Source: a virus (Duplodnaviria > Heunggongvirae > Uroviricota > Caudoviricetes). From it: 64,000 nt of DNA. Within the stretch, counting starts at the first letter, position 1. Each line of letters begins with the position of its first letter. The position numbers were made by a program, and so were the translations under genes. A model generated the notes under the pieces. The model was given only the letters and a program-made list of their open reading frames with translations, searched no databases and was not told the DNA's origin. Positions 7,204-51,400 of this stretch are shown here, piece after piece. Where the stretch lies: IMG/VR virus record IMGVR_UViG_3300031758_000002; one strand, 5' to 3'.

Positions 7204-7785
7204 TTAATCTTTCAAATATTTTAATATCTTTTCTTTAACCCCAGATTGTTTAATACCTTCGTTTGATTTTGGTGTCAATACAAAATTATCTATCGCCCAC
7301 TCATCTTTCCAGGGTTCACCAATTTTACCCATATTCAAGTCATCAATAGAGACCCAATGAGTTACTTCAGGGTGATCATGAAGATATTGTCTAATTTCAA
7401 TTGTTCGTGTTTGTTCTAAATCCCATCGTGGGGACCAAATAAATAAATTACCATGAACTGTACACGTACCTATGTTTGGTGTTAATGATATTGGTTTTTT
7501 ACTTATTCCGTGTAACTCATAGTACTCACCAAGTTCTTCTAGTGTAGCGTGTAGTTTCCAATCTGAAGATACCACAATCTCAGCTCCTGTTTCTTCAAGA
7601 ATTTCATTAAGAACTTTAACCGACTTAGTGTCAAAATCATCAAAACGAAAAGATACTGGAGCGTCTTTTTTTTCCTTACTACTATCAGGGTTTTCACTAC
7701 GATAGTTTGCCCATTTTTTCGTTCGTCCTCCCCAATTATTGGAAAGACAAATAACTCCATCGTGATCCAAAAATATAACTTTCAT
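7204..7785 (-). CDS. HAD-like phosphatase
   Basis: Motif I VIFLDHDGVI and a late acidic motif WVSIDDLN. Confidence 0.55.
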   Translation of the reverse strand: MKVIFLDHDGVICLSNNWGGRTKKWANYRSENPDSSKEKKDAPVSFRFDDFDTKSVKVLNEILEETGAEIVVSSDWKLHATLEELGEYYELHGISKKPISLTPNIGTCTVHGNLFIWSPRWDLEQTRTIEIRQYLHDHPEVTHWVSIDDLNMGKIGEPWKDEWAIDNFVLTPKSNEGIKQSGVKEKILKYLKD

Positions 7786-11140: not shown

Positions 11141-12271
11141 TCAATGGGAGTCACCAACATTATTTTTCTCCCCATATATTAAATAATCAGGATTGATAAC
11201 CTTTGCAACTTTATGACGATCACCAGTCACAGATTTAACAACGATACCTTCGTGAGGAACTTTGGTTCCTTTTATAAAATTACCGAAGACATATTTATCT
11301 TGTTCTTCTTTACTCCAAGTTCCTTCATATAATACTTCAACTTGTGGGAGTTCCAAACAATCAAAATGAACGGTTTCTTCAAGGTGTGGTTGATAAACAC
11401 CATCAACTTCAACATCAAAACCAACAAACTTTATTTCCTCCAAACCATATTCATAGTTTTTTTGGATTCCTTTACCATAGATTTCCCCATAGATAGTAAG
11501 TCCTTGTTCCAAAGATTCAGGGTAATATGTATCCTTAACATGATCCCAAAGTTTTTTTCGTATGTCATATTTGTTGGCAACTTCTCTCCACACATCAGTA
11601 TCGTAGAATCCTTGAGAATCAGATCCTTTCTCCACATTATGAGAACCATACACATATTCAAACTCAACCCACTCATTACCGAAGAACTTTTTCACTCTAT
11701 CCCACAAAGAAAGTTTTTTCTTTCTAACTATTCCAAATCTGGCATTAGTTCCGTGTATTTTACGGGTGATAACAACCTCATCTTCTTCGGTGAACATATC
11801 AGGAACATTCTTCATGTTTGGGAATTTGTGATAGATATGGAAGTTTGGATTTTGGTGGTATCTAACTTTCTTACCTCCACCCAAAGTAACCATTTTAACC
11901 GGTGGTTCGTATTTGGTTATTCCAAGTATTTCCATCATATCATCACCTTCATTAACATTGTTCACCAATGATTTTGGTGCCAAGTACTTGAATGGTATTA
12001 ACAAACATTCGGAATAAAATCCACGAAGTTTTACGGTTCTAACTCGTTGTCCTTTACGAAGGTAGTTAGTCACTTCCATCAAGTCAGACAATGCTTGTGG
12101 TATTACCGCATCAGTGGTTGCAACAACAACTTTATCTCCTTCTTGGTATTCACCTTTTTTGGTTATCGCCTGCCATCCACCAACAAGTACAAGTTCTATG
12201 TTGTCAGCATTTGGTATTTCAACTACTGAACCTATTTTTCCAACATATGCTACGCTATTTTGATTTTCCAT
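11141..12271 (-). CDS. ATP-dependent RNA ligase, Rnl2/Rnl5-like, with N-terminal extension (OB fold by analogy to Rnl5)
   Basis: Nucleotidyltransferase motif I ITRKIHGTNARFG (KxHGxN as in T4 Rnl2 EKIHGTN) at about residue 172. An N-terminal module of about 130 aa precedes it. Total 376 aa, similar to DraRnl/NgrRnl. Confidence 0.7.
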   Translation of the reverse strand: MENQNSVAYVGKIGSVVEIPNADNIELVLVGGWQAITKKGEYQEGDKVVVATTDAVIPQALSDLMEVTNYLRKGQRVRTVKLRGFYSECLLIPFKYLAPKSLVNNVNEGDDMMEILGITKYEPPVKMVTLGGGKKVRYHQNPNFHIYHKFPNMKNVPDMFTEEDEVVITRKIHGTNARFGIVRKKKLSLWDRVKKFFGNEWVEFEYVYGSHNVEKGSDSQGFYDTDVWREVANKYDIRKKLWDHVKDTYYPESLEQGLTIYGEIYGKGIQKNYEYGLEEIKFVGFDVEVDGVYQPHLEETVHFDCLELPQVEVLYEGTWSKEEQDKYVFGNFIKGTKVPHEGIVVKSVTGDRHKVAKVINPDYLIYGEKNNVGDSH

Positions 12272-18951: not shown

Positions 18952-19605
18952 TTAACCCACAACTCCAACCAAACCATCCAAATGATGATCACCACTCATG
19001 TCAGAACCAACAGGTATTTTACCCATAATTCTAATGATATCATCAATATTATATGGATCCATACCGTTACCATCAACACCAACATCCATTCTTTTACCAT
19101 TACCAAATTTACGGTGTTCAGGTAAGTGAACATGACCGTGTAAATGAATAACACCTTTATTCAATCCGTTCCAACTTTGTAATGGGTAATGACAAAGTAC
19201 AAAGTCTTTCCCATTGATGTTCACCTCCAAATAGTGTTGTACACTCAGGAATCTCCCTTGTACATAATCACGGTTGTTCTCAATATGATGATCATGATTT
19301 CCAAGTACGAGGTGAATGTTGTGACAAACCAATCTTTCAAGGAAGATTCCAATATTATCAAATCCTCCGAATGAAACATCACCCAACATAATTAAGGTAT
19401 CATCTTGTCCAACAACACTATTAATACCGTCAACCAATCGTTGGTTCATTTGTTCAATAGTTTGAAAATCACGAGTAGAATCTACCGGTACTTCACCATC
19501 TTGTGTTCTCCAATTTGTCACACCACGACATATATTTTTGTGTCCATAGTGAGTATCACTTGTGATGAACACTTTTCCTGTCGTTAATATTTTTTTAAAT
19601 CCCAT
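18952..19605 (-). CDS. calcineurin-like metallophosphoesterase
   Basis: MPP motifs ITSDTHYGH, LGDVSFGG and LGNHDHH, plus the later His motifs. Confidence 0.7.
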   Translation of the reverse strand: MGFKKILTTGKVFITSDTHYGHKNICRGVTNWRTQDGEVPVDSTRDFQTIEQMNQRLVDGINSVVGQDDTLIMLGDVSFGGFDNIGIFLERLVCHNIHLVLGNHDHHIENNRDYVQGRFLSVQHYLEVNINGKDFVLCHYPLQSWNGLNKGVIHLHGHVHLPEHRKFGNGKRMDVGVDGNGMDPYNIDDIIRIMGKIPVGSDMSGDHHLDGLVGVVG

Positions 19606-23357: not shown

Positions 23358-23657
23358 ATGACATCAAAAGACACTCAACAAGGTATGATGGGTAAAAAAT
23401 TTGATGATACATTTGATGGAATGTTATTTATAATGAATGATAGTGAACATTCTTTTTGGATGAAGGATTGTATAATTCCTTTGGATATTATCTATATAAG
23501 TAACAATACTATTGTTAAGATACATCATAACTGTGAACCTTGTACTTCTAACCCATGTAAGAGATATCCTGGTAATGGTGATATGATATTAGAAGTTATG
23601 GGCGGAACCTGTGAAGAATATGATATTACAAAAGGAGATAGAGTATACTTTGATTAA
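23358..23657 (+). CDS. DUF192 (COG1430) domain protein
   Basis: GMLFIMNDSEHSFWMKDCIIPLDIIYISNN.IV.I...EPC......YPGNGDMILE matches the DUF192 consensus. Divergent from the Nudix gene. Confidence 0.55.
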   Translation: MTSKDTQQGMMGKKFDDTFDGMLFIMNDSEHSFWMKDCIIPLDIIYISNNTIVKIHHNCEPCTSNPCKRYPGNGDMILEVMGGTCEEYDITKGDRVYFD

Positions 23658-25066
23658 CCTTCTTGAACTTTCTCTTTCAATAATCTAACAAATTCATTCT
23701 GAATCATTTTAGTAAATTTCACATACGCAGCGTCCTCATTTTCAGAACTATATTTGTATTTCCCTTGAGGTGGTCTTTTACTTCTACCCATATAATTTAA
23801 TCCCGAAATGTTAGTTATACATTTATGTCCTCCACTATTTGATTGGATAATGTCCCAAGCAGTTACGGTAACACTATCAAGTAAACTCATCTCTTCATCA
23901 GTTAAATCGGTAAATGATTTTGACATTGCCGTATCAATATCTCTCATAAAATCTTTACCGTCTTTTGATTTGAATTTATCTCCGTATAACGCTCTAAAAT
24001 CTTTATATGTGAACCCAACAGATTCAGGTGTAAATCCTTTTCCTGATTCTGATATCCACTTAATTGTTGATAATGGAATATCCCTATCTTTTAATTGTGA
24101 TTCCCATTTTCCTAATACTTCATCTTTAATCTCACCTAAGTTAACTCCTTTAAGTGCTCTTTCTTTTTTGAATGGGTTACAGGATGCTTGAACCAATCCT
24201 AACGGCCAAGCAATAACTAAGAAGTCGGCATCAGGATTATTTCTAAATGGGGTGTATCTATCATAAGAACCTGGTTTCATCATTGATCCACCACCATATT
24301 GTACAATAATGTTGTCATCAATTTTAACATTAGGATGTGACTTCATCGTTTGGACATACATTTCCTTATTCTTTTCAAGATCTCCAACCTCAGCGTATCC
24401 TTTACTCATCATTTGTCCTCTAATATTATTCAGGATACTCATTAATGATGGATTTGCGGTTAAAACAATTTCTTCAAGAAAACCTGGTTTATTTTTATAT
24501 GCTAATAATAGTTTATTAACAACCAACCCCATTAACATTTTATTTCTTTGTAATGTTTTATCCTTATCTAATTTGAATAGGTAGTTCATCACTTGTTCAG
24601 GTGCGATATCGTGTTTTGCATAATCTGCAGAATCCACAGTTGATATTAATGTAATGTCTTCAGGTGAGAAAATATCTTTAGGTGATATTGTTTGAGATAT
24701 TGTTTCAACATTCGATCTTGATGATCTAAAACTTGTTGATGTTCCTTGTTCAACTCCGGCTTGAGTATCGTGGTGATCGGTATGAATAACAAACATTGGT
24801 TTTCCGTGGGCAAAATCTACCAGTACAGGCATTGTATCACCTTCAGCATCTAATTTCTTAACTGAAAATTCTTTATCCCCGTATTGGATTATTTCGGCAT
24901 CAACAACTTTAATACCATTATTCTCCAAATAGTGTTTCATTGCAAGTGCGGTAGTAACACCATCTAAATCTTGGTGAAAATATATTTTAGCTTTAGGGTA
25001 TCTTTTAGCTAATTTGTTAATATCCCTTAATCCTGATTCTAATATTAAATTTTTTCTCATAACCAT
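23654..25066 (-). CDS. DHH/DHHA1-family phosphoesterase (RecJ/NrnA-like)
   Basis: DHH motifs FHQDLDGV and VIHTDHHD. DHHA1-like GGGH motif in SNSGGHKCI near the C-terminus. 470 aa. Confidence 0.65.
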   Translation of the reverse strand: MVMRKNLILESGLRDINKLAKRYPKAKIYFHQDLDGVTTALAMKHYLENNGIKVVDAEIIQYGDKEFSVKKLDAEGDTMPVLVDFAHGKPMFVIHTDHHDTQAGVEQGTSTSFRSSRSNVETISQTISPKDIFSPEDITLISTVDSADYAKHDIAPEQVMNYLFKLDKDKTLQRNKMLMGLVVNKLLLAYKNKPGFLEEIVLTANPSLMSILNNIRGQMMSKGYAEVGDLEKNKEMYVQTMKSHPNVKIDDNIIVQYGGGSMMKPGSYDRYTPFRNNPDADFLVIAWPLGLVQASCNPFKKERALKGVNLGEIKDEVLGKWESQLKDRDIPLSTIKWISESGKGFTPESVGFTYKDFRALYGDKFKSKDGKDFMRDIDTAMSKSFTDLTDEEMSLLDSVTVTAWDIIQSNSGGHKCITNISGLNYMGRSKRPPQGKYKYSSENEDAAYVKFTKMIQNEFVRLLKEKVQEG

Positions 25067-25478: not shown

Positions 25479-26027
25479 ATGAAAGTATCCAACATTTTAA
25501 AATTGGTATACTTGATGGGATGTCTTGTTACCATTATTACCTTATCAGGTATGTCAACGATTGAGATTCAATCTAATAGTAAATTCACGAATGAAGGATC
25601 AGGTATTCCAAATTCACCAATTTCTATTCGGATGTATGAATGTATTGAGAAATACTCTGATGAATATAACATTCCTAAGTATGTTGCATATAATGTGGCG
25701 TATAAAGAAACAACATACAGAGGTCCTTTTGATTGGAGGTACAATCCCGAAAGAATCTCTTGTGTTGGGGCTTTGGGTCCGATGCAGATTATGCCTATGA
25801 CATCTTATTCAATTAATAAAGTAAAATATTCAAATCATAAAATTATGACTGATATTGAGTTGAACATTAGGACAAGTATGAAACTTCTACGAAAACTTTA
25901 TAATAAATACGGTGACTGGAATGTTGTTTGTGGTTGTTATAACACGGGTAGACCTATTGTAAATGAGTATGGTAGGTATTGTGGAACTAACAAAAATTAT
26001 AAGTCAAAGTGGTTATCACTTAAATAA
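25479..26027 (+). CDS. lytic transglycosylase (SLT domain) with N-terminal membrane anchor
   Basis: AYKETTYRG...GALGPMQIMPMT resembles the SLT catalytic region (E-S/T...GA.G.MQ..P.T). Confidence 0.55.
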   Translation: MKVSNILKLVYLMGCLVTIITLSGMSTIEIQSNSKFTNEGSGIPNSPISIRMYECIEKYSDEYNIPKYVAYNVAYKETTYRGPFDWRYNPERISCVGALGPMQIMPMTSYSINKVKYSNHKIMTDIELNIRTSMKLLRKLYNKYGDWNVVCGCYNTGRPIVNEYGRYCGTNKNYKSKWLSLK

Positions 26028-26031
26028 AAAA

Positions 26032-26053
26032 TCCCCACCTTTTGAGTGGGGTT
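26032..26053. terminator. bidirectional rho-independent terminator between convergent genes
   Basis: AAAAAATCCCCACCTTTTGAGTGGGGTTTTTAA. Confidence 0.6.
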
Positions 26054-26073: not shown

Positions 26074-26949
26074 TTACCCATAAACAACTTCACCCATTAC
26101 ACATAGTTGTAAGAATACATCGGCATCTCCAGCATCCGCATTTTCCAATAATATATTTTTCCAAACTTCAGGATATTCACTTTTTATTTTTGTTATTGCC
26201 TCTAATATTCTGTTCATATCAATATGTCCAAGTTTAGTATTTTCAATGTCTTCCTGATAACTCTTTTCATCAACCATATCATCACTATCACCAATATTGT
26301 AATCACCATCTTTTAATGCTCTCCTAACATCATAATATTCTTCCTTATCGTAGAAATCAATTGACCCACCTCGTAAGACATATTCACCAACCGCTTCAGA
26401 TTTTGATTGCCCATATGATTTTATATTTTCAGGTAAATCAATTAAATACCAATAATTGGATCCACCCTCAAGAGCGGTAACTAAAATATCAGTTATGTCT
26501 TCTTTTGTTAACTTTCTATTTAATTGTTCTTTCTCCCATTTTTCGCTTCTGATATTCCAAGACATTGAATATGCTCCTCCGTGTATATCTCTATCAATAC
26601 CATCTTTAACATACTCTTCAAAATCAAAATTTTCAAGGTTCTTTTTATTTCTTTCGTATTGTTTTACTTTACCCTCATATTCTTTAATCATATAATCAAA
26701 ATATTTTTCAGGTATATCAGGATTATTTTTAATATGACTTTTTATTTTTTCCAAAATTTCCGCATGTTCCTCACCCTCCTCAACTTCTTTTTTTAACCAT
26801 TCATATTGTTGTTTAACATTTTTTCTAACAAATTCTTCAATTCGTTTCATTTCGTCCTGTGTAAACCCATATTGATTTACCTCATCTGACTCTGAAATAA
26901 GATTTGACTTTAAATATTTTAATTGTTTTTCGGTAAGAAATATTTTCAT
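26074..26949 (-). CDS. hypothetical acidic protein with family-like N-terminus MKIFLTEKQLKYLKSNL
   Basis: N-terminal LTE motif and amphipathic helix similar to the MKKVIRLTESDL family. 291 aa. Confidence 0.4.
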   Translation of the reverse strand: MKIFLTEKQLKYLKSNLISESDEVNQYGFTQDEMKRIEEFVRKNVKQQYEWLKKEVEEGEEHAEILEKIKSHIKNNPDIPEKYFDYMIKEYEGKVKQYERNKKNLENFDFEEYVKDGIDRDIHGGAYSMSWNIRSEKWEKEQLNRKLTKEDITDILVTALEGGSNYWYLIDLPENIKSYGQSKSEAVGEYVLRGGSIDFYDKEEYYDVRRALKDGDYNIGDSDDMVDEKSYQEDIENTKLGHIDMNRILEAITKIKSEYPEVWKNILLENADAGDADVFLQLCVMGEVVYG

Positions 26950-27296: not shown

Positions 27297-27307
27297 AAAA
27301 TAAAAAA

Positions 27308-27331
27308 ACCCACTTTTAAGGTGGGTTTTAT
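27308..27331 (-). terminator. rho-independent terminator (CCCAC-loop-GTGGG)
   Basis: AAAAAAACCCACTTTTAAGGTGGGTTTTAT, downstream of the gene ending at 27333. Confidence 0.55.
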
Positions 27332-27332
27332 A

Positions 27333-28181
27333 TTAGAGTTGTTCTTCTTTTATTTCCTGTAAGGTTTTAAAGTAATTTACTCTCGTATTGGCTATCTCGG
27401 TATAGTTTGGTGATAACTCAATACCTAACCATCTTCTTCCCAATACTTCAGCGGCAACTAATGTTGTTCCACTACCAGCGAATGGATCTAAAATCACATC
27501 GTTTTTGTAGGATAATATTTTGATCGCTTTAGTTGGGATGTCCATTGAGAACGTCGCCTTGGTGAGTGATTTAGTATCTGCAAAGTAATTCCACTGACCA
27601 AAAACAAGTTCCATAAACTCCTTCTTATCTTGTTCTTCATATACAACTTTCTTTTTTATGGTTCCATCCTCCTGTTCAATTTCAGTAGGTGTCCCTTTCC
27701 ACTGAGGTTCTCCCTTAACCTTTTTAATGTGGTGTTTTTTGTATGCAAGTATTACACACTCCTTTGGATTATAAATATACGGACTTGACGGACTCATCCA
27801 AGATCCCCAAGCAGTTGTTTTACTACGATGAGGTGAATCTTCTTCTAAATCCACGATACCGAAGAAACCAAACCCAATTTGTTTCATTAATTGATACATT
27901 TCAGAAACAAAGAAAATTCTTCCCCCTTTCTTTTGTCTATTGATTTCATATGGAATATTCAACGCGATTCGTCCATCATCTTTCAAAACATTATATGCTT
28001 CAGTTAACCAATTTTTGGCAAATACCAAATACTCCTCAAACTCCACATCATCATCGTGGGTATCATACGCAATCCCGACTCCGTAGGGTGGTGATGTGAC
28101 GATTAAATCCACAGACCCTTCAGGTAATGTTTTCATCACCTCAATACAATCTCCTGTTATTATTTTTCCTGTTTCTATCAT
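27333..28181 (-). CDS. DNA methyltransferase, beta-class N6-adenine/N4-cytosine (pfam01555-like)
   Basis: Motif IV DLIVTSPPYGVG comes first, then motif I ILDPFAGSGTTLVAAEVLGRRWLGIELS. That order defines the beta class. Confidence 0.8.
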   Translation of the reverse strand: MIETGKIITGDCIEVMKTLPEGSVDLIVTSPPYGVGIAYDTHDDDVEFEEYLVFAKNWLTEAYNVLKDDGRIALNIPYEINRQKKGGRIFFVSEMYQLMKQIGFGFFGIVDLEEDSPHRSKTTAWGSWMSPSSPYIYNPKECVILAYKKHHIKKVKGEPQWKGTPTEIEQEDGTIKKKVVYEEQDKKEFMELVFGQWNYFADTKSLTKATFSMDIPTKAIKILSYKNDVILDPFAGSGTTLVAAEVLGRRWLGIELSPNYTEIANTRVNYFKTLQEIKEEQL

Positions 28182-29017
28182 TTTTTCTCCAATGTTTCAA
28201 TGTGGTGTTGCAAATACCACAATGCTTTTTTAAGATCCTGTAATTCTTTATCTAACTCTTTCTTACCCGCTCTTGAGATATACTTCACAGTATTACCAAG
28301 GGAGAATCCTAAGTCCCAAGCATCAATCACCTTGATTGCTTCATATGGGTTTGACTCTCCCCCATAGTGGTTAGGGTGATTTACTTGTTCCTTTTTTTCT
28401 TCCATTTCTTTTTTCTTTTTGTGAGCCCAAAATACTCCATCAATATGATAGGTATTAAATCCTTGCCAGTCAAATGATTCAATTACATTATTAACACCTT
28501 CAGTAGGATCTTTTGAGGACTTATAATCATCCAAATATACAATACCATCATCATTAATAAAATTAATCACATTATTAATATCACCTCTAACGCATTCCTC
28601 AAAGTGGCACCCATCAATCTCAATAAAATCAAATTTTGTTTTTGATGTGTCTAAAACTCTTGGAACAACCTCAAGGGAGTTACCAGGAAATAAACTCAAA
28701 TGTATGTTCCACTTCCTGTAATGCTTGGCAAGTATTGAGTGATTGTTAACAGTACTCTCATATTTACAGTCATCAAATACAAAAACAATTATTGGTTTCC
28801 TATTAAAATCAGGATCTTCATTAATTATTTTCAATAATGTCTCACATATTAAAACCATTGAATGTCCTTCATTGAATCCTATTTCAATAATATTTCTTGG
28901 TTTAATTTGGTATACCAAATCTTGTAGGGTATGAATCCTTTCTGGGTACCAACTAATGTTACCCTCACCCTTACCAAACATCATTCCGGGTAATTTGTTA
29001 AATATATTATTTTCCAT
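28178..29017 (-). CDS. class I SAM-dependent methyltransferase-like domain fused to a C-terminal DUF3310 domain
   Basis: Motif I-like IIEIGFNEGHS and acidic FDFIEIDG / VYLDDY. The C-terminus (HPNHYGG...YEAIKVIDAWDLGFSLGNTVKYISRAGKK...DLKKALWYLQHHI) matches DUF3310 as I remember the family. Confidence 0.5.
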   Translation of the reverse strand: MENNIFNKLPGMMFGKGEGNISWYPERIHTLQDLVYQIKPRNIIEIGFNEGHSMVLICETLLKIINEDPDFNRKPIIVFVFDDCKYESTVNNHSILAKHYRKWNIHLSLFPGNSLEVVPRVLDTSKTKFDFIEIDGCHFEECVRGDINNVINFINDDGIVYLDDYKSSKDPTEGVNNVIESFDWQGFNTYHIDGVFWAHKKKKEMEEKKEQVNHPNHYGGESNPYEAIKVIDAWDLGFSLGNTVKYISRAGKKELDKELQDLKKALWYLQHHIETLEKK

Positions 29018-30206
29018 TTAAATCAAATTTAATTTCTTTTGTAGGGATATTACTTCCATCCATTGTTTTACCATCCAATTCAAATTCTTCATCATTGAAG
29101 TATTCTTTTAATAGTTCATCGGTTGGGATTGTTTTATAATCCATCTTAAGGTTGTCCATATCAAGTTTATAATTCATTTTATGTTTGATGTCGTCAATCT
29201 CTTCAGCGTTTCTTAATGATTCACATATTTGATAAATGATTTTATATGGATCAGCATTAGATGATGGTCGTCTATCTTCAACATATCCCTTCCATTCTTT
29301 TGCGGTTGATTGTGGAACTCTAATTGATGCACCTCTATCTGAAATACCCCAACTAAACTTATTAATTGATTGGGTTTCAAATTTACCCGTCAATCTTAAT
29401 TCATTTGATGAACCATAATTTTCAATATGTTCTTGGTGTCTTGTGGCAAAACTTGAGAAAATTGATTTAAAATGATTTTCACCACCTTCTTCCCTCATTT
29501 TATAATTTGAGAAGTTTGTGTGAAGTCCAGATCCATTCCATTCACCTTTTTGGATTGGTTTTGGGTGTAGTTCAATCCCATAATTATATTTTTCGGACAA
29601 CTTATGTAATAGGTATCTAGACATCCATAAATCATCTCCTGATTTCAATTTACCTTGAGAGAATACTTGATACTCCCATTGTCCAAGTGCAACCTCGGCA
29701 TTTATTCCTGTTATGTTAATCCCATACCTTAAACATAAATTCATATGTTCTTCAACAAATTCTCTACCCGCAACATATTCTCCAACACCACAATAATATT
29801 TACCTTGTGGTTCCAAGTTGTTTTCATCGTGGCCTAAAATACATTTATTTTTTCTATCATAGATAAAGTATTCTTGTTCAAAACCAAACCACAAATCCTC
29901 TTGTTCATTACCAAGTAATGATCTGGTATTTGATTGATGTGGTGTTCCGTCTGAATTCATAACCTCACAAAGAACATACACACTACCAAATTTATCATCC
30001 AAATAATGTCTTACAGGTTTTAAAATACAGTCTGAAGTCCCAGTTTCTGCTTGGTTTGTTGATGATCCGTCAAAGTTCCATTCAGGAAATCTACCCGTTA
30101 TAAATGAATTTTTTATGTCATCGTAATTAACAATTTTTACCTTACTTCTTAAATTTGGTTCCGGCATATATCCGTCTAACCACAGATATTCAAGTTTAAT
30201 CTTCAT
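29007..30206 (-). CDS. glutamine synthetase, type II (eukaryote/GlnII-like)
   Basis: GSII signatures EYLWLDG (YIWIDG), GKYYCGVG (GPYYC), FEQEYF, EWNGSGLHTNFS and ASIRVPQ. 399 aa. Confidence 0.8.
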   Translation of the reverse strand: MKIKLEYLWLDGYMPEPNLRSKVKIVNYDDIKNSFITGRFPEWNFDGSSTNQAETGTSDCILKPVRHYLDDKFGSVYVLCEVMNSDGTPHQSNTRSLLGNEQEDLWFGFEQEYFIYDRKNKCILGHDENNLEPQGKYYCGVGEYVAGREFVEEHMNLCLRYGINITGINAEVALGQWEYQVFSQGKLKSGDDLWMSRYLLHKLSEKYNYGIELHPKPIQKGEWNGSGLHTNFSNYKMREEGGENHFKSIFSSFATRHQEHIENYGSSNELRLTGKFETQSINKFSWGISDRGASIRVPQSTAKEWKGYVEDRRPSSNADPYKIIYQICESLRNAEEIDDIKHKMNYKLDMDNLKMDYKTIPTDELLKEYFNDEEFELDGKTMDGSNIPTKEIKFDLNGK

Positions 30207-30394
30207 TTGTTTTTATTTATATATTTTATGATTTCATCCTCAGTTTTTCCTTCGCAGAACATTTTGAACACTTCATTTGAAAAGTCGTCACTAATAATAA
30301 TTGCATCGGCTGATAGATATCTTGATAGGTTATCAAGATTATTAATAATATTATCTTTTCTGAGTATCCTCTTGTTGAATCCCATTATTTTCAC
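30203..30394 (-). CDS. hypothetical protein (63 aa)
   Basis: ORF, 4-bp overlap with the GS gene. Confidence 0.3.
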   Translation of the reverse strand: MKIMGFNKRILRKDNIINNLDNLSRYLSADAIIISDDFSNEVFKMFCEGKTEDEIIKYINKNK

Positions 30395-30492
30395 TCTTTA
30401 ATTTGTGATACATTTCTCTAACTTTTTTACCCAAATCACTATCGTTTGGATTTTCCTTAACCAACTTTTCAAAAATTTCTATTATATCCATA

Positions 30493-31284
30493 TTACTTAA
30501 CTTTAATTTGTATCACTTTTTTTTCTTTCCCATACATTTCTTGATTAATATATGAAATCAGTTTTCTTTTGAATAATGGTAGTAATGTTTCATTGATTGG
30601 GAATATATCACTACATTTCATTTCAAACACAGGTAATGATGGTTTTTCTTCATCAGAACTCCATTGAGAAAATGTATTAATTATTTTTGGTATAGTCAAC
30701 TTATCTTTTGGTTCGGAATGAATTAAATTTACAAGTGTTTTTTTCTCAATGGAACCTCTTGATGCTGGTGTTATGTTGTACTCCCAAACATATAAACTAT
30801 TTGTTTTATTCTCATTGTAGTAAAAGTATCCTTTGTTTAACGATAGATTTTTTTTGTTCTTTTTAATTTTAACTTCAATTGTTTCAAACACGACTGACCA
30901 CACGGACTTTGCAACATTGAAGTACTCCATTAGTCTTGGTGCGGAAAATTTTAATATACTAATAAACTCTTGAGTTTCTTCCTGTGTCATGTCAGGAATT
31001 TGTTTGATTTTCAAATCCTTAACAAGGAGTTCATCATCAATCGTATCAAACTTCTTATCAGTATAAATTAATTTTTTATCTTTAATTAGGGTTTGAATAC
31101 TTGCCAAATGCAATGACAACTCTATGAAACCAGGATATAGTTCCATATTATCAAGTTTCTCTCCCATTTTTTGGAAGTAACTTAATAATTTATATTCTTT
31201 GTGTTCTTGATCAATTGGTTTTTCAAATAACCAATCTGTTTCCATTATAAATTCAATTCCTTTATTTTTCTTTTTTCTTGCCAT
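30493..31284 (-). CDS. hypothetical protein (263 aa)
   Basis: ORF. Confidence 0.4.
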   Translation of the reverse strand: MARKKKNKGIEFIMETDWLFEKPIDQEHKEYKLLSYFQKMGEKLDNMELYPGFIELSLHLASIQTLIKDKKLIYTDKKFDTIDDELLVKDLKIKQIPDMTQEETQEFISILKFSAPRLMEYFNVAKSVWSVVFETIEVKIKKNKKNLSLNKGYFYYNENKTNSLYVWEYNITPASRGSIEKKTLVNLIHSEPKDKLTIPKIINTFSQWSSDEEKPSLPVFEMKCSDIFPINETLLPLFKRKLISYINQEMYGKEKKVIQIKVK

Positions 31285-31320: not shown

Positions 31321-32829
31321 TTATTTATCGGTTATCATTACAACATAACTTTGGTTACCCAAATTAATAATATCATATGTTGAGTCGTAACCATTCAAAA
31401 TACCATAATCCTCATCACCAGCAACATCTTCAATAAATGCCTTTTCATCAATAAAATTATCAACATCCATGTCGTAATTTCTCAACCAACTTATAGGGTC
31501 ATTAGAAATTTCGTATTTTTTATCTTCAACCCTTTCTTCAACCGAATCTTCATCCAAATCACCATCAGGATTTTCTTCAATTTCTTGTATTTCATATTCA
31601 ATATCAGAAATTCTACTTTCACGATCATCTTGGTGATCGTCAGTGTCTTCATCATCATATAGTTGACCTGGTTGAACTATCGATCCGTCTTTATATAATA
31701 CCCACTTATTTCCTTCATATTTTAATTGAAATTCGTGTTCTTCATCTTCATCCCAAAAATCAAATACAGTTCCATTTTCTTCTTTTGTTGGGTACTTTAT
31801 TGGAAACCTGACTCCTTCATTTTCATAAACCCATTTCTCCATTTTAAGAACCCAAAGTTCATCTTTTTGACTTCTACTTAAATCTTTTACAACGTCATAA
31901 TTATCAGGATCATCATATATCCATTCTCTAATAACATCTTCAAAATAGTCGGCAACCTCATCACCATCAATATGTCTTTCAACCGTATATTGATTAAAGT
32001 GTCTATATCCTCCATCATCCAATAATTGTTCAACCCATTCTTTTTTTGATTCATCCGCTTCATATTCGGTTCCAACGGCAATTGTCACATCATTAAAATC
32101 ATCATATGTTGTCATAAAAGATAACATATTATAATGTCCAAAACTTTTGGGTATCAATCCATAAACATCATTATTTTCCTTTCTTAATAAATCATCAATG
32201 TCTTCTTGTAATTCATCGTATTCACTTTGCAATTCAGATAAAAGTTCCTCATCATTTTCCGCTTCCATTCTATCAGAAATATTAAGTTGTCTTTGTTCTA
32301 AATTTTTTAATTCTCTTTTTTCTTCTGATGTTATTTCTTCTATCTCACCATTTTCAACAAGGTACTGAAACGCAGCATTTGCTTTTAATCCCTCATCATC
32401 AATGTTCGGATAATCTAAGTCCCACACACCATTTTCTCTTCTTTCTTGGGCATCATCCAATTCTTTTCTTCGTTTCCTTATCTTTTCTTTAGACTCCAAT
32501 GGTGTATTATAGTACCATTTAGACCCCGTAATTGTCACACCATTTAAAGTTTCTAACTTTGATCTAGTTGCCTCTAATGATCCTTGTAGATATATTGTTC
32601 CAAGATTTGTAACTGGTTTACCTGATATATCTAACCTACCGTTTACTTTTATTTTCTTACCTCTAAACCTTCTTGTCTTTTCAAGAGCCGCACCATTATA
32701 TCCAGTTACAGATAATAACTGTTCATATTCATTTGCGGGAATTTCAATAAATTCAGATTCTTCTTCGTTGAGTTTAGTTTTAATTATTTTAATTAAATCT
32801 GATTCGGTAAGTCTAATTACTTTTTTCAT
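31321..32829 (-). CDS. large acidic protein (502 aa) with family N-terminus MKKVIRLTESDLIKIIKTKLNEE
   Basis: First 13 aa identical to the tandem triplet at 16.2-17.2 kb. The rest is highly acidic (D/E-rich). Confidence 0.5.
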   Translation of the reverse strand: MKKVIRLTESDLIKIIKTKLNEEESEFIEIPANEYEQLLSVTGYNGAALEKTRRFRGKKIKVNGRLDISGKPVTNLGTIYLQGSLEATRSKLETLNGVTITGSKWYYNTPLESKEKIRKRRKELDDAQERRENGVWDLDYPNIDDEGLKANAAFQYLVENGEIEEITSEEKRELKNLEQRQLNISDRMEAENDEELLSELQSEYDELQEDIDDLLRKENNDVYGLIPKSFGHYNMLSFMTTYDDFNDVTIAVGTEYEADESKKEWVEQLLDDGGYRHFNQYTVERHIDGDEVADYFEDVIREWIYDDPDNYDVVKDLSRSQKDELWVLKMEKWVYENEGVRFPIKYPTKEENGTVFDFWDEDEEHEFQLKYEGNKWVLYKDGSIVQPGQLYDDEDTDDHQDDRESRISDIEYEIQEIEENPDGDLDEDSVEERVEDKKYEISNDPISWLRNYDMDVDNFIDEKAFIEDVAGDEDYGILNGYDSTYDIINLGNQSYVVMITDK

Positions 32830-38938: not shown

Positions 38939-39778
38939 TTAATAATTCAGTATAAGTAATTCTTCACCCATATTTTGTTTGGTACCTTTTTTGGCTGCCG
39001 CCGCCTTAGCGAATTCTTTTTTCTCCCAACTATATTGTTCTTTAGGGAACCATTCCGATAACAACGGGAAGTCATAATACGACAAACTAAATTTACCTTC
39101 CATTCCTTTTAATATATTTGCAAGTCTTTCATGATCTTCTCTGTCAAAATCGTGATTTGAATAGTAATTTTCAGTTTTCCAATATGGTGGATCAACATAA
39201 AAATATGTTGTTGGTGAATCATACTTTTTAATGACATCCTCAAAATCCATATTTTCAACATCCGTAATTTTCAAGAAATGTTCTACCCAATCAGGTTTAG
39301 ATAATTTATCTCTAAATGTAAGATACTTTGATTTGTATTTACCTTTCAAGTCAATGAATGAACTTGTCTCAGGTTTAGAACCACTAAAAACCTGTGTAAG
39401 GACATAAGCGTATTTAGCAGCAACTTCATAATTACCAGGTTCTACACTGAAACCTTCACTAAAAATTTCAGCCTGAAACCTGATAAACTGTTCTTTATAA
39501 ATTGGTGGAGTTACTTCTACACCAAATTTCTGACAATCAATTGCGTTAATTGCATTCAATAATTCAGTTGGGTTCTGAATACATTTAAACAGATTGTAAT
39601 TAAGTGGATTAAAGTCGTTATAAACAACTTTCTTTAGGTTTGGGAACTGTTTTAAGTCCATGTTGAAGAAACACCAAAACATCCCTCCGAATGTTTCAAC
39701 ATATGTTTCCATATTATTATCATAGAAAGGGACTATCCACTTTCCAATTTTACTCTTACCTCCGATATAACTTAACAT
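38939..39778 (-). CDS. Dam-like DNA N6-adenine methyltransferase (D12 class)
   Basis: N-terminal SYIGGKSK (Y.GGK) and late YVDPPYW (DPPY). Confidence 0.75.
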   Translation of the reverse strand: MLSYIGGKSKIGKWIVPFYDNNMETYVETFGGMFWCFFNMDLKQFPNLKKVVYNDFNPLNYNLFKCIQNPTELLNAINAIDCQKFGVEVTPPIYKEQFIRFQAEIFSEGFSVEPGNYEVAAKYAYVLTQVFSGSKPETSSFIDLKGKYKSKYLTFRDKLSKPDWVEHFLKITDVENMDFEDVIKKYDSPTTYFYVDPPYWKTENYYSNHDFDREDHERLANILKGMEGKFSLSYYDFPLLSEWFPKEQYSWEKKEFAKAAAAKKGTKQNMGEELLILNY

Positions 39779-40540: not shown

Positions 40541-40717
40541 ATGAAACAAGAAGTAGAACAATCAAAAAAAGAAGCAACACAAGTTACAGGATGTAGTCAA
40601 TGTAAAAAAGGTATGAGTAAAACACAATGGGGATTATTAATATTCTCATTATATATGTTTGGTGCCGGAATTTACGGTACCATCCAAATAATTAAAGATG
40701 TAATTTCTTTATTTTAA
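40541..40717 (+). CDS. small membrane protein (58 aa)
   Basis: Not in the track. MKQEVEQSKKEATQVTGCSQCKKGMSKTQWGLLIFSLYMFGAGIYGTIQIIKDVISLF has one TM helix. Confidence 0.3.
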   Translation: MKQEVEQSKKEATQVTGCSQCKKGMSKTQWGLLIFSLYMFGAGIYGTIQIIKDVISLF

Positions 40718-41643
40718 TCCCTTTCAAATCGGACATGCTGGTTAACCAACAAGTCACCTATCACTTCACCTTTAAACCCTTTTGATTTAACTCTTAAGGG
40801 TTTTGTTGTATCAAATGTCTTTGGGAATCTTAACCTTACCGTACCGTCAGGATGAGGTATTTCAAAATCACTCTTCTTCAAATCATCCAATGTGAAATAA
40901 GCATTATAAATTAAGTGAGGTCCGTACTTTTCAAAATTATTATCAGAAACCAATTTAACTCTAACAACTAAGTTACCATAAACACCGTTTCTAAAATCCC
41001 CAACACCTTGTAATCGGATGAATTGTCCATCATCAATACCATTAGGTAATTTAACTTCAACAGTTTTCATCTCATCTTTAGTCCCACTACCATTACAAAT
41101 ATGACAAGGATTTGTAATAACTCGTCCATGTCCTGAACAAGTGTTACAAGCAACTTGTACCATTTGTATAAACATACCAGACCCCATCTGTCTCACTACA
41201 GAACCTTGTCCATTACATTCGGGACAAATTTTCTTCTCACCCCCACTACCATTACATGGATCACATTTTAATTTCCTACGATATGTGATTTCTTTATTCG
41301 CACCCAAATATGATTCAGTAACTTTTAATTCAGTATCAATAACTAAATCATGTACCACATTTTTTTGTCTACGATTACCAAATGCCTGATTAAACATCTG
41401 TTGGAATATATCGTCACCTCCTCCCATTCCTGCAAATGGGTTCTTTCTTCTCATATCATACTCTTGTCGTTTGTTATCGTCACCAATAGTATCATATGCT
41501 TCAGCAATTTGCTTAAACTTTTCCTCATCACCACCAGCATCAGGGTGATTTTCTTTTGCCAGTTTACGATATACTTTTTTTATCTCATCTTGGGTTGCAG
41601 TTTCAGGAACACCTAATATGTCGTAATAATTCGGAATATTCAT
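40714..41643 (-). CDS. dnaJ: DnaJ (Hsp40) co-chaperone, type I (J domain plus CxxCxGxG zinc-finger repeats)
   Basis: J domain NYYDILGV...AKENHPD (HPD tripeptide). Four CxxCxGxG repeats (CDPCNGSG, CPECNGQG, CNTCSGHG, CHICNGSG). C-terminal substrate-binding domain. Confidence 0.85.
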   Translation of the reverse strand: MNIPNYYDILGVPETATQDEIKKVYRKLAKENHPDAGGDEEKFKQIAEAYDTIGDDNKRQEYDMRRKNPFAGMGGGDDIFQQMFNQAFGNRRQKNVVHDLVIDTELKVTESYLGANKEITYRRKLKCDPCNGSGGEKKICPECNGQGSVVRQMGSGMFIQMVQVACNTCSGHGRVITNPCHICNGSGTKDEMKTVEVKLPNGIDDGQFIRLQGVGDFRNGVYGNLVVRVKLVSDNNFEKYGPHLIYNAYFTLDDLKKSDFEIPHPDGTVRLRFPKTFDTTKPLRVKSKGFKGEVIGDLLVNQHVRFERD

Positions 41644-50599: not shown

Positions 50600-51400
50600 T
50601 TAGATATAATCAAATAATTCAGAACTCTCATTTCGTAACCTTCTCAAAGCTCTTTCTTTAATCTGTCTTACTCGTTCTTTAGTTAAACCAAAATCACCTC
50701 CAATATCTTCCAAAGTTCTTGGTGTTCCACTAAGTCCAAAATAATCCTCAATAATTACTCGTTCTCTTTCATCTAAAACACTAAGTGTATTGATTAATTT
50801 TTCTTTAAGAATGTCCGCAGTATTAAAAGCCGCATCAGGAGCGTCTGCATCCATATTTGGTATCATATCAAGGAATGTATCTCCCTCATCATTGATATTC
50901 ATATCTAAGTCAATCATTGATGGTAAAGATGAGAATTTATCCGATAGTTTTCCTCCATTATTCTCAATTTCTTTTTTAGCTTTATGAAGTTCCTGAACAA
51001 CATTTACAGGAAGTCTAATTGTTCTCGCATTGTCATTTAAAGACTGAATAATAGATTGTTTAACCCACCAAACGGCATATGAAATAAATCTCAAATTTTT
51101 ACTCCAATCAAAGTTTTTAATTGCTTTCAATAACCCTAAGTTACCCTCAGCAACCAAATCAGGAAAATCCAAACCTTGATTTTGATATTGTTTTGCAACG
51201 GTAATAACAAATCGTAAATTACCTGTTAACAACTCCTGTTCAACTTGTTTTCGTTGTTTGTCAGTTAAAGTATCCGACATCATAAGTTTAGATAATTCTT
51301 TTTCCCTTTCAGGTGTCATAACTTTAATCTTCCTAATATCCTTTAGGTAGTGAGAGATTTCATCCTGATTAATGGGCATTCCTGTTCCTTTTTCCTTCAT
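50600..51400 (-). CDS. sigma-70 family RNA polymerase sigma factor (regions 2-4)
   Basis: Region 2 LRFVITVAKQYQNQGLDFPDLVAEGNLGLLKAIKNFD. Region 2.4/3 RFISYAVWWVKQSI. Region 4 HTH TLEDIGGDFGLTKERVRQIKERALRRLR. Confidence 0.8.
   Translation of the reverse strand: MKEKGTGMPINQDEISHYLKDIRKIKVMTPEREKELSKLMMSDTLTDKQRKQVEQELLTGNLRFVITVAKQYQNQGLDFPDLVAEGNLGLLKAIKNFDWSKNLRFISYAVWWVKQSIIQSLNDNARTIRLPVNVVQELHKAKKEIENNGGKLSDKFSSLPSMIDLDMNINDEGDTFLDMIPNMDADAPDAAFNTADILKEKLINTLSVLDERERVIIEDYFGLSGTPRTLEDIGGDFGLTKERVRQIKERALRRLRNESSELFDYI

What the first reader, a model, noticed from the sequence alone, without database searches (positions are those of the whole stretch)
27333..30206. Operon GSII, then (SAM-methyltransferase-like plus DUF3310 fusion), then beta-class DNA methyltransferase, with overlapping stop/start codons
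Three enzymes are translationally coupled (11-bp and 4-bp overlaps) on one transcript ending at the 27308 terminator. The middle gene fuses a class I SAM-methyltransferase-like fold to DUF3310, a phage-specific domain of unknown function. Its position next to an amide ligase and a DNA methyltransferase is suggestive of a DNA or nucleotide modification module, but that is speculative.
Basis: inference. Interest (0 to 1): 0.6.

Follow-up and report, generated by a model that had tools for sequence, protein, structure and literature searches.

The report
Phage accessory genes, not one pathway
Three neighbouring enzyme genes of a large freshwater phage (a glutamine synthetase, a methyltransferase fused to a small phage-specific domain, and a DNA methylase) really do overlap on what is probably one transcript, but related phages gain and lose each gene separately, so they look like independent accessory genes rather than one DNA-modification machine.

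Summary
Three minus-strand ORFs (29007-30206, 28178-29017, 27333-28181) overlap by 11 and 4 nt and end at a strong terminator (27329-27305). The domain calls are correct: type II glutamine synthetase (GSII), Methyltransf_24 plus DUF3310, and a beta-class N6/N4 DNA methyltransferase.

The "modification module" reading is not supported. In 160 related viral loci the genes sit on a collinear backbone but come and go separately. The methyltransferase domain is missing from most relatives, where DUF3310 stands alone at 72-103 aa. 11 of 15 fusion-bearing loci lack GS, and 6 of 14 lack the DNA methylase. More distant GS-encoding phages have neither partner nearby. The same slot also holds sugar-nucleotide enzymes and homing endonucleases.

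- **GS:** it keeps every GSII motif and is closest to Bacteroidota GSII. Phage GS has already been reported in huge phages.
- **DUF3310:** it is the C-terminal domain of the T7 gp1.7 nucleotide kinase and of SaV.
- **Methyltransferase domain:** it has a cation-dependent O-methyltransferase fold (TrmR, CCoAOMT, CalS11, SpnH, NovP-like), not FkbM.

The only unusual part is the conserved O-methyltransferase-DUF3310 fusion, whose substrate is unknown. Interest is modest.

The parts
31321..32829 (-). 502-aa backbone gene of unknown function. It is probably the first gene of the same-strand unit.
   Evidence: ORF with no Pfam or PHROG hit. Homologues lie upstream of the slot in most related loci.
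30493..31284 (-). 263-aa backbone gene of unknown function.
   Evidence: ORF. It is conserved upstream of the slot whether or not GS is present.
30351..30491 (-). 46-aa ORF that starts 1 nt after the stop of the 263-aa gene.
   Evidence: Weak homologues are present in many related loci.
30203..30394 (-). 63-aa ORF whose stop codon overlaps the GS start (ATGA). It belongs to the backbone and is not specific to GS.
   Evidence: It is found with GS in L079/L080 and without GS in L087-L089, L094-L097, L113 and L120.
29007..30206 (-). Type II glutamine synthetase of 399 aa. The catalytic core is aa 1-335, followed by a phage-specific acidic tail of about 65 aa.
   Evidence: Pfam Gln-synt_N and Gln-synt_C. 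NCBIfam GlnII scores 333 bits over model positions 1-327 of 333. The match to yeast Gln1 (3fky) scores 303 bits and to Streptomyces GSII (4bax) 287 bits, with all catalytic motifs identical or conservative.
28418..29017 (-). N-terminal domain (aa 1-200) of the 279-aa fusion protein: a SAM-dependent, cation-dependent-type O-methyltransferase fold (Methyltransf_24).
28181..28384 (-). C-terminal DUF3310 domain (aa 212-279) of the fusion protein. It is of the gp1.7/SaV type and is predicted as three helices. It follows a disordered Lys/Glu-rich linker (aa 201-211).
   Evidence: PF11753 scores 50 bits. It is 42% identical to T7 gp1.7 aa 117-183, and gp1.7 carries PF11753 at aa 122-184. This is the one element kept at the site in 78 of 80 GS-anchored related loci.
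27333..28181 (-). Orphan beta-class N6/N4 DNA methyltransferase of 282 aa, with a TSPPY motif IV.
   Evidence: PF01555 scores 123 bits. PADLOC MTase_II scores 186 bits, and no restriction partner was detected among the neighbouring genes.
27305..27329 (-). Intrinsic-terminator-like hairpin with a T-run that closes the unit.

Best explanation
The three genes are independent accessory genes. They happen to be packed into one same-strand unit, 32829 to 27333 and closed by the 27329-27305 terminator. This unit lies inside a variable island of a large phage that probably infects Bacteroidota and is related to the Mahaphage-type megaphages.

1. **GS.** The gene encodes a catalytically intact type II glutamine synthetase (glutamate + NH4+ + ATP gives glutamine). 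Its intactness is shown by sequence. Its role is inferred: an auxiliary metabolic gene that keeps up the glutamine supply, which is the amide-nitrogen donor for purine, CTP, NAD and amino-sugar synthesis, in the infected cell.

2. **Middle gene.** It joins a metal-dependent SAM O-methyltransferase domain to DUF3310 through a flexible linker. DUF3310 is the domain shared with the T7 gp1.7 dTMP/dGMP kinase and with SaV, and it is the resident gene of this site. In one sub-lineage an O-methyltransferase became fused to it. The most likely activity (inferred) is O-methylation of a nucleotide-linked hydroxyl, with DUF3310 supplying nucleotide binding or assembly. My rough split is 45% NDP-sugar or glycan hydroxyl, 20% hydroxylated nucleotide, and 35% something else.

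3. **Last gene.** It is an orphan beta-class DNA methyltransferase. The SPPY motif hints at N4-cytosine specificity; that motif rule is from my own knowledge. Its inferred role is to protect phage DNA from host type II restriction.

The overlapping stop and start codons reflect the compact gene packing seen all over this genome, not a shared pathway.
For: **Variable gene content on a collinear backbone.**
- *GS-anchored sample.* 78 of 80 loci keep GS, then DUF3310, then the methylase in that order. Only 6 of them carry the methyltransferase domain. In the other 72 the DUF3310 protein is 72-103 aa.
- *DUF3310-anchored sample.* Fused with GS 4, fused without GS 11; stand-alone with GS 49, stand-alone without GS 12. 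Fused with methylase 8, fused without 6.
- *Called genes.* In L084-L086 the order is backbone, fusion, N6_N4 with no GS. In L087-L089 it is backbone, fusion, DUF192/NUDIX with neither GS nor methylase.
- *Distant GS phages.* L079/L080 (68% identity) and three megaphages (44-54%) have no DUF3310 or N6_N4 gene within 6-12 kb.

**Other cargo in the same slot.** NDP-sugar 4,6-dehydratase, a DegT-like protein, a PglD-like acyltransferase, a GNAT, a different stand-alone Methyltransf_24 protein, and LAGLIDADG and HNH endonucleases.

**GS.** All GSII motifs are kept. The nearest cellular homologues, at 50-57% identity, are mostly chromosomal GSII genes of Bacteroidota. 248 GS genes have been reported in 247 huge phages (bioRxiv 10.1101/2025.02.27.640493).

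**DUF3310.** Its link to gp1.7 was tested. A ThyX-DUF3310 fusion exists (P0108).

**Methyltransferase fold.**. Distant relatives are fused to GT25 and GT1 glycosyltransferases.

**Methylases.** The window holds three DNA methylases.

**Lineage and host.** The DHH-like neighbour has 39-46% homologues in the 634-642 kb megaphages. Genomes of that size class were predicted to infect Bacteroidetes (PMC7162821).
Against: - In the GS-anchored sample the order GS, DUF3310, methylase is very stable (78 of 80), and GS and the methylase co-occur more often than not (44 of 45 GS-bearing assessable loci). Some functional benefit of keeping them together cannot be excluded.
- These counts are not phylogenetically independent.
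- No expression data exist, so co-transcription and timing are inferred from spacing and one terminator.
- None of the enzyme activities has been measured.
- The GS scores below the NCBIfam GlnII equivalog cut-off (333 against 500 bits) and carries an extra C-terminal tail, so an altered role is possible.
- Whether DUF3310 alone binds nucleotides is unknown. In gp1.7 it is only the last third of the protein.
Confidence: 0.7

Rival explanations
1. The three enzymes form one DNA or nucleotide modification pathway: the GS-like amide ligase attaches an amino or glutamyl group, the methyltransferase-DUF3310 protein methylates or phosphorylates the intermediate, and the DNA methylase completes or complements the modification.
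For: The genes are adjacent, on the same strand and overlapping, and they end at one terminator. The exact trio recurs in several sub-lineages: L001-L003, L061, L072 and L099. DUF3310 is linked to a nucleotide kinase.
Against: - Each gene occurs without the others in close relatives and in distant GS-encoding phages.
- The fusion is in fact negatively associated with GS: 4 of 15 fused loci carry GS against 49 of 61 stand-alone loci.
- GS keeps the ammonium-site and flap motifs of true GSII.
- None of the window ORFs that I scanned is a dUMP/dCMP hydroxymethylase, a P-loop DNA-base kinase or a base-transferase.
- Unrelated cargo and homing endonucleases interrupt the trio in relatives.
Confidence: 0.06
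2. The middle protein acts by itself as a nucleotide methyltransferase-kinase. The SAM-dependent domain methylates a free hydroxylated deoxynucleotide, and the gp1.7-like domain phosphorylates it for incorporation into phage DNA. GS and the DNA methylase are bystanders.
Against: - Most relatives carry DUF3310 alone at 72-103 aa, too small to be assumed a kinase. The N-terminal two thirds of gp1.7 is absent here.
- Fold neighbours are equally sugar and catechol O-methyltransferases.
- Distant sequence relatives are fused to glycosyltransferases.
- No hydroxylase or hydroxymethylase that could make the substrate was found in the window. The rest of the genome was not seen.
Confidence: 0.1
3. DUF3310 here is not enzymatic at all. 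It is a SaV-like early host-takeover or toxic protein, and the fused methyltransferase modifies a host target (protein, RNA or envelope sugar) to which DUF3310 directs it.
For: SaV is an early, toxic protein involved in sensitivity to AbiV (PMC8306868). DUF3310 proteins are among the most cytotoxic products in mycobacteriophage overexpression screens (PMC10700055). gp1.7 activates Avs5 (PMC11897194). DUF3310 is fused to many unrelated partners, including HTH and Toprim-like domains.
Against: No host target is known for any DUF3310 protein. The toxicity could equally come from nucleotide-pool imbalance. Nothing in the sequence points to a particular host target.
Confidence: 0.14

Closest known systems
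Type II glutamine synthetase (GlnII; yeast Gln1 PDB 3fky, Streptomyces GSII PDB 4bax) and the phage-encoded GS reported in huge phages
   Same: It aligns over the full length, at 303 and 287 bits, with every catalytic motif kept. Bacteroidota chromosomal GSII is 50-57% identical. GS genes are already recorded in 247 huge phages, mostly from freshwater and marine samples.
   Different: It scores below the NCBIfam GlnII equivalog cut-off (333 against 500 bits). It carries an acidic C-terminal tail of about 65 aa that is absent from cellular GSII. It sits in a phage variable island. Its activity is untested.
T7 gp1.7 nucleotide kinase and Lactococcus phage SaV (Pfam DUF3310, PF11753)
   Same: The same Pfam domain is present at 50 bits, and aa 207-268 are 42% identical to the gp1.7 C-terminus. 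Its placement among non-structural genes would fit an early or middle gene, but expression timing was not tested.
   Different: The N-terminal 120 aa of gp1.7 are replaced by a Methyltransf_24 domain. Relatives at the same site have DUF3310 alone (72-103 aa). Kinase activity cannot be assumed.
Cation-dependent class I O-methyltransferases (TrmR/YrrM, CCoAOMT/COMT, and the TylF-type sugar O-methyltransferases NovP, CalS11 and SpnH; Pfam Methyltransf_24 and CmcI)
   Different: Sequence identity is only 12-19%. The TylF Pfam model gives no hit to the window protein. A conserved His138 lies where NovP has an Asp. The protein is fused to DUF3310. The substrate is unknown.
Orphan phage beta-class N6/N4 DNA methyltransferases (PHROG 67; CcrM, M.PvuII-like)
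   Same: PF01555 scores 123 bits and phrog_67 scores 153 bits. Motif IV comes before motif I. No restriction partner was detected.
   Different: Nothing notable. It has an SPPY rather than a DPPY motif IV, as does the second beta-class methylase of the window.

Membership tests
Type II glutamine synthetase (GSII/GlnII) | Gln-synt_N beta-grasp domain plus Gln-synt_C catalytic domain, alignable over the whole length of solved GSII enzymes. | tested here: met
   PF03951 scores 34.3 bits and PF00120 scores 68.4 bits, both above their cut-offs. Against 3fky, aa 3-338 align to chain residues 24-359 at E = 3e-89.
Type II glutamine synthetase (GSII/GlnII) | Conserved metal-, glutamate-, ATP- and ammonium-site motifs: DGSST, EQEY, NAEV..QWE.Q, H.N.S, the R.TG..E flap, RG.S.R.P and EDRRP..N.DPY. 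| tested here: met
   All are present, at aa 43-53, 107-113, 167-181, 223-233, 271-280, 290-298 and 310-321. Which residue does what is from my own knowledge of GSII structures.
Type II glutamine synthetase (GSII/GlnII) | Score above the NCBIfam GlnII equivalog cut-off. | tested here: not met
   333.1 bits against a cut-off of 500. This fits a divergent phage copy and does not exclude GS activity.
Type II glutamine synthetase (GSII/GlnII) | ATP-dependent synthesis of glutamine from glutamate and ammonium. | not testable with these tools
   An enzyme assay is needed.
DUF3310 / SaV-like / T7 gp1.7 family | Pfam PF11753 domain above the gathering score. | tested here: met
   50.0 bits against a cut-off of 24, aa 212-270. 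T7 gp1.7 itself scores 81.5 bits at aa 122-184.
DUF3310 / SaV-like / T7 gp1.7 family | Full-length similarity to gp1.7, including its N-terminal 120 aa. | tested here: not met
   BLASTP aligns only window aa 207-268 with gp1.7 aa 117-183. The N-terminus here is a Methyltransf_24 domain.
DUF3310 / SaV-like / T7 gp1.7 family | dTMP/dGMP kinase activity. | not testable with these tools
   This is known only for T7 gp1.7 (PMC11897194 and PMC10700055, which cite Tran et al.).
Methyltransf_24 / CmcI / TylF-type cation-dependent O-methyltransferases | Class I Rossmann methyltransferase fold with SAM-binding motif I. | tested here: met
Methyltransf_24 / CmcI / TylF-type cation-dependent O-methyltransferases | Acidic metal-binding triad: an Asp after strand 4 plus a DD or DN pair after strand 5. 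| tested here: inconclusive
   D135 and D164 are invariant and D163 is at least 90% conserved in 30 homologues. They align with the NovP segments MDG-D and VDDY. The geometry was not inspected, and the role of these NovP residues is from memory.
Methyltransf_24 / CmcI / TylF-type cation-dependent O-methyltransferases | Hit to the TylF (PF05711) model itself. | tested here: not met
   There is no PF05711 hit at E <= 0.01 for the window protein. RMNT_CmcI scores exactly its cut-off, 23.2 bits. A 42%-identical stand-alone relative, P0125, does hit TylF at 24.6 bits.
FkbM methyltransferase family | Hit to the FkbM-type model, or FkbM as a fold neighbour. | tested here: not met
Beta-class N6-adenine/N4-cytosine DNA methyltransferases | PF01555 domain with motif IV ((D/S)PP(Y/F)) on the N-terminal side of motif I (FxGxG). 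| tested here: met
   123.2 bits. TSPPY is at aa 29-33 and FAGSGTT at aa 234-240.
Beta-class N6-adenine/N4-cytosine DNA methyltransferases | Part of a restriction-modification pair, meaning a cognate endonuclease lies next to it. | tested here: not met
   The neighbours are the fusion gene and, beyond the terminator, a 108-aa ORF with no hits. There is no endonuclease hit in Pfam or PADLOC. The enzyme is therefore an orphan.
Phage DNA hypermodification modules (for example thymidine hypermodification or glycosyl-hydroxymethylcytosine pathways) | A dNMP hydroxymethylase or other base-activating enzyme together with transferases that travel together across lineages. | tested here: not met
   No such enzyme was found among about 48 window ORFs scanned. 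The three genes do not travel together. The rest of the genome was not seen.

The most novel reading that the evidence does not exclude
The conserved O-methyltransferase-DUF3310 fusion could be a self-contained nucleotide-modifying enzyme. It would be a SAM-dependent O-methyltransferase acting on a hydroxylated deoxynucleotide, as TrmR does on 5-hydroxyuridine, joined to a gp1.7-type kinase module that channels the product toward phage DNA. A ThyX-DUF3310 fusion (P0108) shows that another methylating enzyme of nucleotide metabolism is joined to the same domain. If true, this huge-phage lineage would make a previously unknown methoxy-type DNA base.
Probability: 0.07. Interest if true: 0.8.

Novelty: new variant of a known kind. 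Interest (0 to 1): 0.3.

Why it matters
The result is mostly a clarification. A tempting three-enzyme "operon" in a huge-phage genome turns out to be a string of separately mobile accessory genes. This is a caution against reading pathways from overlapping stop and start codons in compact phage genomes.

Three points are useful to others.

1. Hundreds of freshwater phage contigs carry an apparently intact GSII, most similar to Bacteroidota GSII. This fits, and adds gene context to, the recent report of GS in huge phages.
2. The site is a hot spot that swaps GS, sugar-nucleotide enzymes, methyltransferases and homing endonucleases around a fixed DUF3310 gene.
3. DUF3310 is a very widespread phage domain tied to the T7 nucleotide kinase and to two abortive-infection sensors, AbiV and Avs5. 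Here it exists as a stable fusion with an O-methyltransferase. That fusion is a concrete handle for learning what DUF3310 binds.

Tried and rejected
- **GenBank phage searches.** DNA and protein searches of GenBank phages found no cultured relative. Only the DUF3310 part matched (Flavobacterium, Arthrobacter and Synechococcus phages), and GS matched only four megaphage records without annotation.
- **PDB by sequence.** A single-sequence PDB search with the middle protein gave only chance hits such as the AP-2 mu subunit. A profile search gave weak O-methyltransferase and NovP hits and nothing for DUF3310, so no solved DUF3310 structure was found by sequence.
- **Origin of the fused domain.** I tested whether it derives from the stand-alone Methyltransf_24 gene seen at the same slot in L033. 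That protein is only 25% identical, so this was rejected.
- **Homologues of the methyltransferase domain alone.** The word-index homologue search returned only fused proteins. The exhaustive search then showed stand-alone relatives at 42-47% identity, so the domain is not exclusive to the fusion.
- **Defence or counter-defence role.** PADLOC hit only the DNA methylase.
- **Regulatory RNA near GS.** No Rfam family, including the glutamine riboswitch, and no tRNA was found in the window.
- **Promoters.** The sigma-70 consensus scan gave no more hits than shuffled sequence (49 against 47.5), so no promoter is claimed.
- **Partner enzymes in the window.** I found no sugar-nucleotide enzyme and no thymidylate-synthase-like enzyme in the window.
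Full report
**1. The observation**

The junction sequences read ATGGAAAATAA (11-nt overlap) and ATGA (4-nt overlap). A hairpin with a 9-bp stem followed by a T-run lies at 27329-27305, 4 nt after the last stop codon.

Pfam confirms the three domain calls:
- Gln-synt_N plus Gln-synt_C.
- Methyltransf_24 (aa 44-165) plus DUF3310 (aa 212-270).
- N6_N4_Mtase. TSPPY at aa 29-33 precedes FAGSGTT at aa 234-240, which is the beta-class motif order.

Two things need adding. First, the packed unit is longer than three genes. A 63-aa ORF overlaps the GS start by ATGA, and 46-aa, 263-aa and 502-aa genes lie directly upstream on the same strand. Second, 4-nt overlaps occur elsewhere in the window, for example next to the second beta-class methylase at 52882-52885. 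The overlaps are a property of the genome, not of this trio.

**2. Genomic setting**

The window has about 30% G+C, and nearly all its genes are on the minus strand. It encodes a sigma-70 factor, DnaJ, SbcC- and SbcD-like proteins, an RNA ligase, HAD and PNKP-like phosphatases, a NUDIX protein, a primase-like protein, a Dam methylase and a second beta-class methylase. No tRNA and no Rfam family was found.

There is no cultured relative in GenBank. GS and the DHH-like 470-aa neighbour have homologues in the 634-735 kb metagenomic megaphages. Genomes of that size class were placed in the Mahaphage clade and predicted to infect Bacteroidetes (PMC7162821). The nearest cellular GS genes are also overwhelmingly from Bacteroidota.

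**3. Glutamine synthetase**

The protein aligns over its whole catalytic core with solved GSII enzymes: yeast Gln1 (3fky) at 303 bits and Streptomyces GSII (4bax) at 287 bits. The following motifs are identical or conservatively replaced:
- WNFDGSSTNQA
- FGFEQEY
- GKYYCGVG
- GINAEV..GQWEYQV
- WNGSGLHTNFS
- RLTGKFETQS
- DRGASIRVP
- EDRRPSSNADPY

By my knowledge of GSII structures these motifs hold the metal, glutamate, ATP and ammonium sites and the Glu flap. Nothing suggests a switch to another amine substrate.

The protein matches the NCBIfam GlnII model end to end but below the equivalog cut-off (333 against 500 bits). It also has an acidic tail of about 65 aa that cellular GSII lacks.

More than 580 IMG/VR contigs encode a relative. 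[quoted passage not shown] This part is therefore a new member of a known kind.

**4. The middle protein**

*Is the fusion real?* Yes. There are 50 clusters of full-length homologues, at 48-99% identity, that carry both domains. An alignment of 30 of them shows conservation throughout.

*Structure.* The AlphaFold2 model has a mean pLDDT of 86. It shows a confident Rossmann-type domain (aa 25-200, pLDDT above 90), a disordered Lys/Glu linker, and three helices for DUF3310.

*Fold neighbours of the methyltransferase domain.*
- A sequence profile weakly finds an O-methyltransferase (3r3h) and the C-terminal half of NovP. D135 and D163/D164 lie on the NovP segments MDG-D and VDDY.
- The viral structure library returns 'macrocin O-methyltransferase' proteins of giant viruses and methyltransferase domains fused to glycosyltransferases.
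- The exhaustive sequence search finds stand-alone relatives of 184-222 aa at 36-47% identity. Further out it finds fusions to GT25 and GT1 glycosyltransferases.

The domain belongs to the Methyltransf_24, CmcI and TylF-like group, not to FkbM.

*DUF3310.* It is not without context. I ran T7 gp1.7, the dTMP/dGMP kinase, through Pfam. DUF3310 is its only domain (aa 122-184, 81.5 bits), and it is 42% identical to the window domain. The literature links the domain to three things:
- SaV and the abortive-infection system AbiV (PMC8306868).
- Strong cytotoxicity in mycobacteriophage overexpression screens (PMC10700055).
- Activation of Avs5 by gp1.7 (PMC11897194).

DUF3310 is fused to many partners, including the C-terminus of ThyX, an HTH domain and a Toprim-like region.

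**5. Test of the module idea**

*GS-anchored sample.* Among 80 IMG/VR loci, 78 show the order GS, DUF3310, methylase on a collinear backbone: the 502-aa, 263-aa and 63-aa genes upstream and the DHH-like gene downstream. Only 6 of them carry the methyltransferase domain. In the other 72 the DUF3310 protein is 72-103 aa.

*Variable cargo.* Between GS and DUF3310, or between DUF3310 and the methylase, relatives carry the following:
- an NDP-sugar 4,6-dehydratase;
- a DegT-like protein;
- a PglD-like acyltransferase;
- a GNAT;
- a different Methyltransf_24 protein, only 25% identical to the window domain;
- LAGLIDADG and HNH homing endonucleases.

*DUF3310-anchored sample.* In 80 loci the counts were:

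| DUF3310 form | with GS | without GS | with methylase | without methylase |
|---|---|---|---|---|
| Fused to the methyltransferase | 4 | 11 | 8 | 6 |
| Stand-alone | 49 | 12 | 54 | 1 |

Gene calls on longer contigs confirm both reduced states. One is backbone, fusion, N6_N4 without GS. The other is backbone, fusion, DUF192/NUDIX with neither GS nor methylase.

*Distant GS phages.* L079/L080 and three megaphages have no DUF3310 or N6_N4 gene within 6-12 kb.

These counts are not phylogenetically independent and are descriptive only. They do show that every pairwise combination exists, and that the window's trio is a minority state.

**6. DNA methylase**

It is a standard beta-class enzyme: PF01555 at 123 bits, phrog_67 at 153 bits and PADLOC MTase_II at 186 bits. 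No endonuclease was detected beside it. It is one of three methylases in the window, and the other beta-class copy also has TSPPY. From my own knowledge, SPPY is more typical of N4-cytosine enzymes and DPPY of N6-adenine enzymes. That is a lead, not a test.

**7. Most likely mechanism**

- *Shown.* The gene order, the overlaps, the terminator, the domain families, the folds, and the independent presence and absence of the genes.
- *Inferred.* GS tops up glutamine in the infected cell. The methylase protects phage DNA from restriction. The fusion O-methylates a hydroxyl on a nucleotide-linked substrate, with DUF3310 providing nucleotide binding or assembly.
- *On the fusion's substrate.* I lean toward an NDP-sugar or glycan substrate, because of the fold neighbours, the glycosyltransferase fusions of distant relatives, and the sugar genes that share this slot in related phages. 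A hydroxylated nucleotide is the more exciting alternative. It rests on the gp1.7 link, the ThyX fusion and TrmR being the top fold match.

**8. Verdict**

GS and the methylase are ordinary for large aquatic phages. The O-methyltransferase-DUF3310 fusion and the variable island around a fixed DUF3310 gene are the only mildly new elements. I rate the interest at 0.3 and the novelty as 'new variant of a known kind'.

Noticed in passing
L023 1720-2936; L028 4152-5087; L033 3266-5871; L039 1276-4681; L073 2590-3519: In related phages the slot between GS and the DNA methylase holds cassettes of sugar-nucleotide enzymes: an NDP-sugar 4,6-dehydratase, a short (214-aa) DegT-like protein, a PglD-like hexapeptide acyltransferase, a GNAT and a stand-alone Methyltransf_24 O-methyltransferase. 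This suggests that some members of the lineage make a modified amino-deoxy sugar.
   Followed up: partly
L044 6322-7122; L072 4931-5872; L007 7765-8460: LAGLIDADG and HNH homing endonuclease genes sit in the same slot in some relatives. They could drive the gene turnover seen there.
   Followed up: partly
window 29007-29201 (GS aa 335-399): The phage GS carries an acidic C-terminal tail of about 65 aa. Cellular GSII and the solved structures lack it, since their alignments stop near aa 335. Its length varies among phage relatives, some of which match only to aa 369-373.
   Followed up: no
window 38939-39778 and 51974-52885: There are two further DNA methyltransferases in the window: a Dam-type D12 enzyme, and a second beta-class N6_N4 enzyme that also has TSPPY and also overlaps its upstream gene by 4 nt.
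   Followed up: partly
window 3213-3842, 7204-7785, 11141-12271, 18952-19605: These genes look like an RNA-repair set: an RNA ligase with a PHA02142 OB-fold domain, a HAD_SAK_2 domain ('Swiss Army Knife RNA repair'), a HAD/PNKP-like phosphatase and a calcineurin-like phosphoesterase.
   Followed up: no
window 53624-55999 and 57381-58181: An SbcC/Rad50-like protein of 791 aa (weak Walker B hit) lies near a calcineurin-like phosphoesterase of 266 aa that could be its SbcD/Mre11 partner.
   Followed up: no
window 50600-51400, 40714-41643, 2026-2976: A full sigma-70 family factor (regions 1.2, 2 and 4), a complete DnaJ (J domain, zinc finger and C-terminal domain) and an SPFH/Band 7 protein are encoded in the window.
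   Followed up: no
window 30203-30394: A 63-aa ORF overlaps the GS start by ATGA. It is conserved next to GS even in the distant L079/L080 contigs, and it is also present in relatives that lack GS. It has no family match.
   Followed up: partly
protein P0108 (found): A metagenomic protein joins the C-terminal part of ThyX (flavin-dependent thymidylate synthase) to DUF3310. This is a gene-fusion hint that DUF3310 works in dTMP metabolism.
   Followed up: partly
window 26033-26051: A G+C-rich hairpin with T-runs on both sides scores as a terminator on both strands. It lies between the convergent genes 25479-26027 (+, SLT transglycosylase) and 26074-26949 (-).
   Followed up: no
window 23654-25066: A 470-aa protein with a weak DHH-family N-terminal hit forms the downstream boundary of the variable island in relatives. 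It has 39-46% homologues in the 634-642 kb megaphages.
   Followed up: partly
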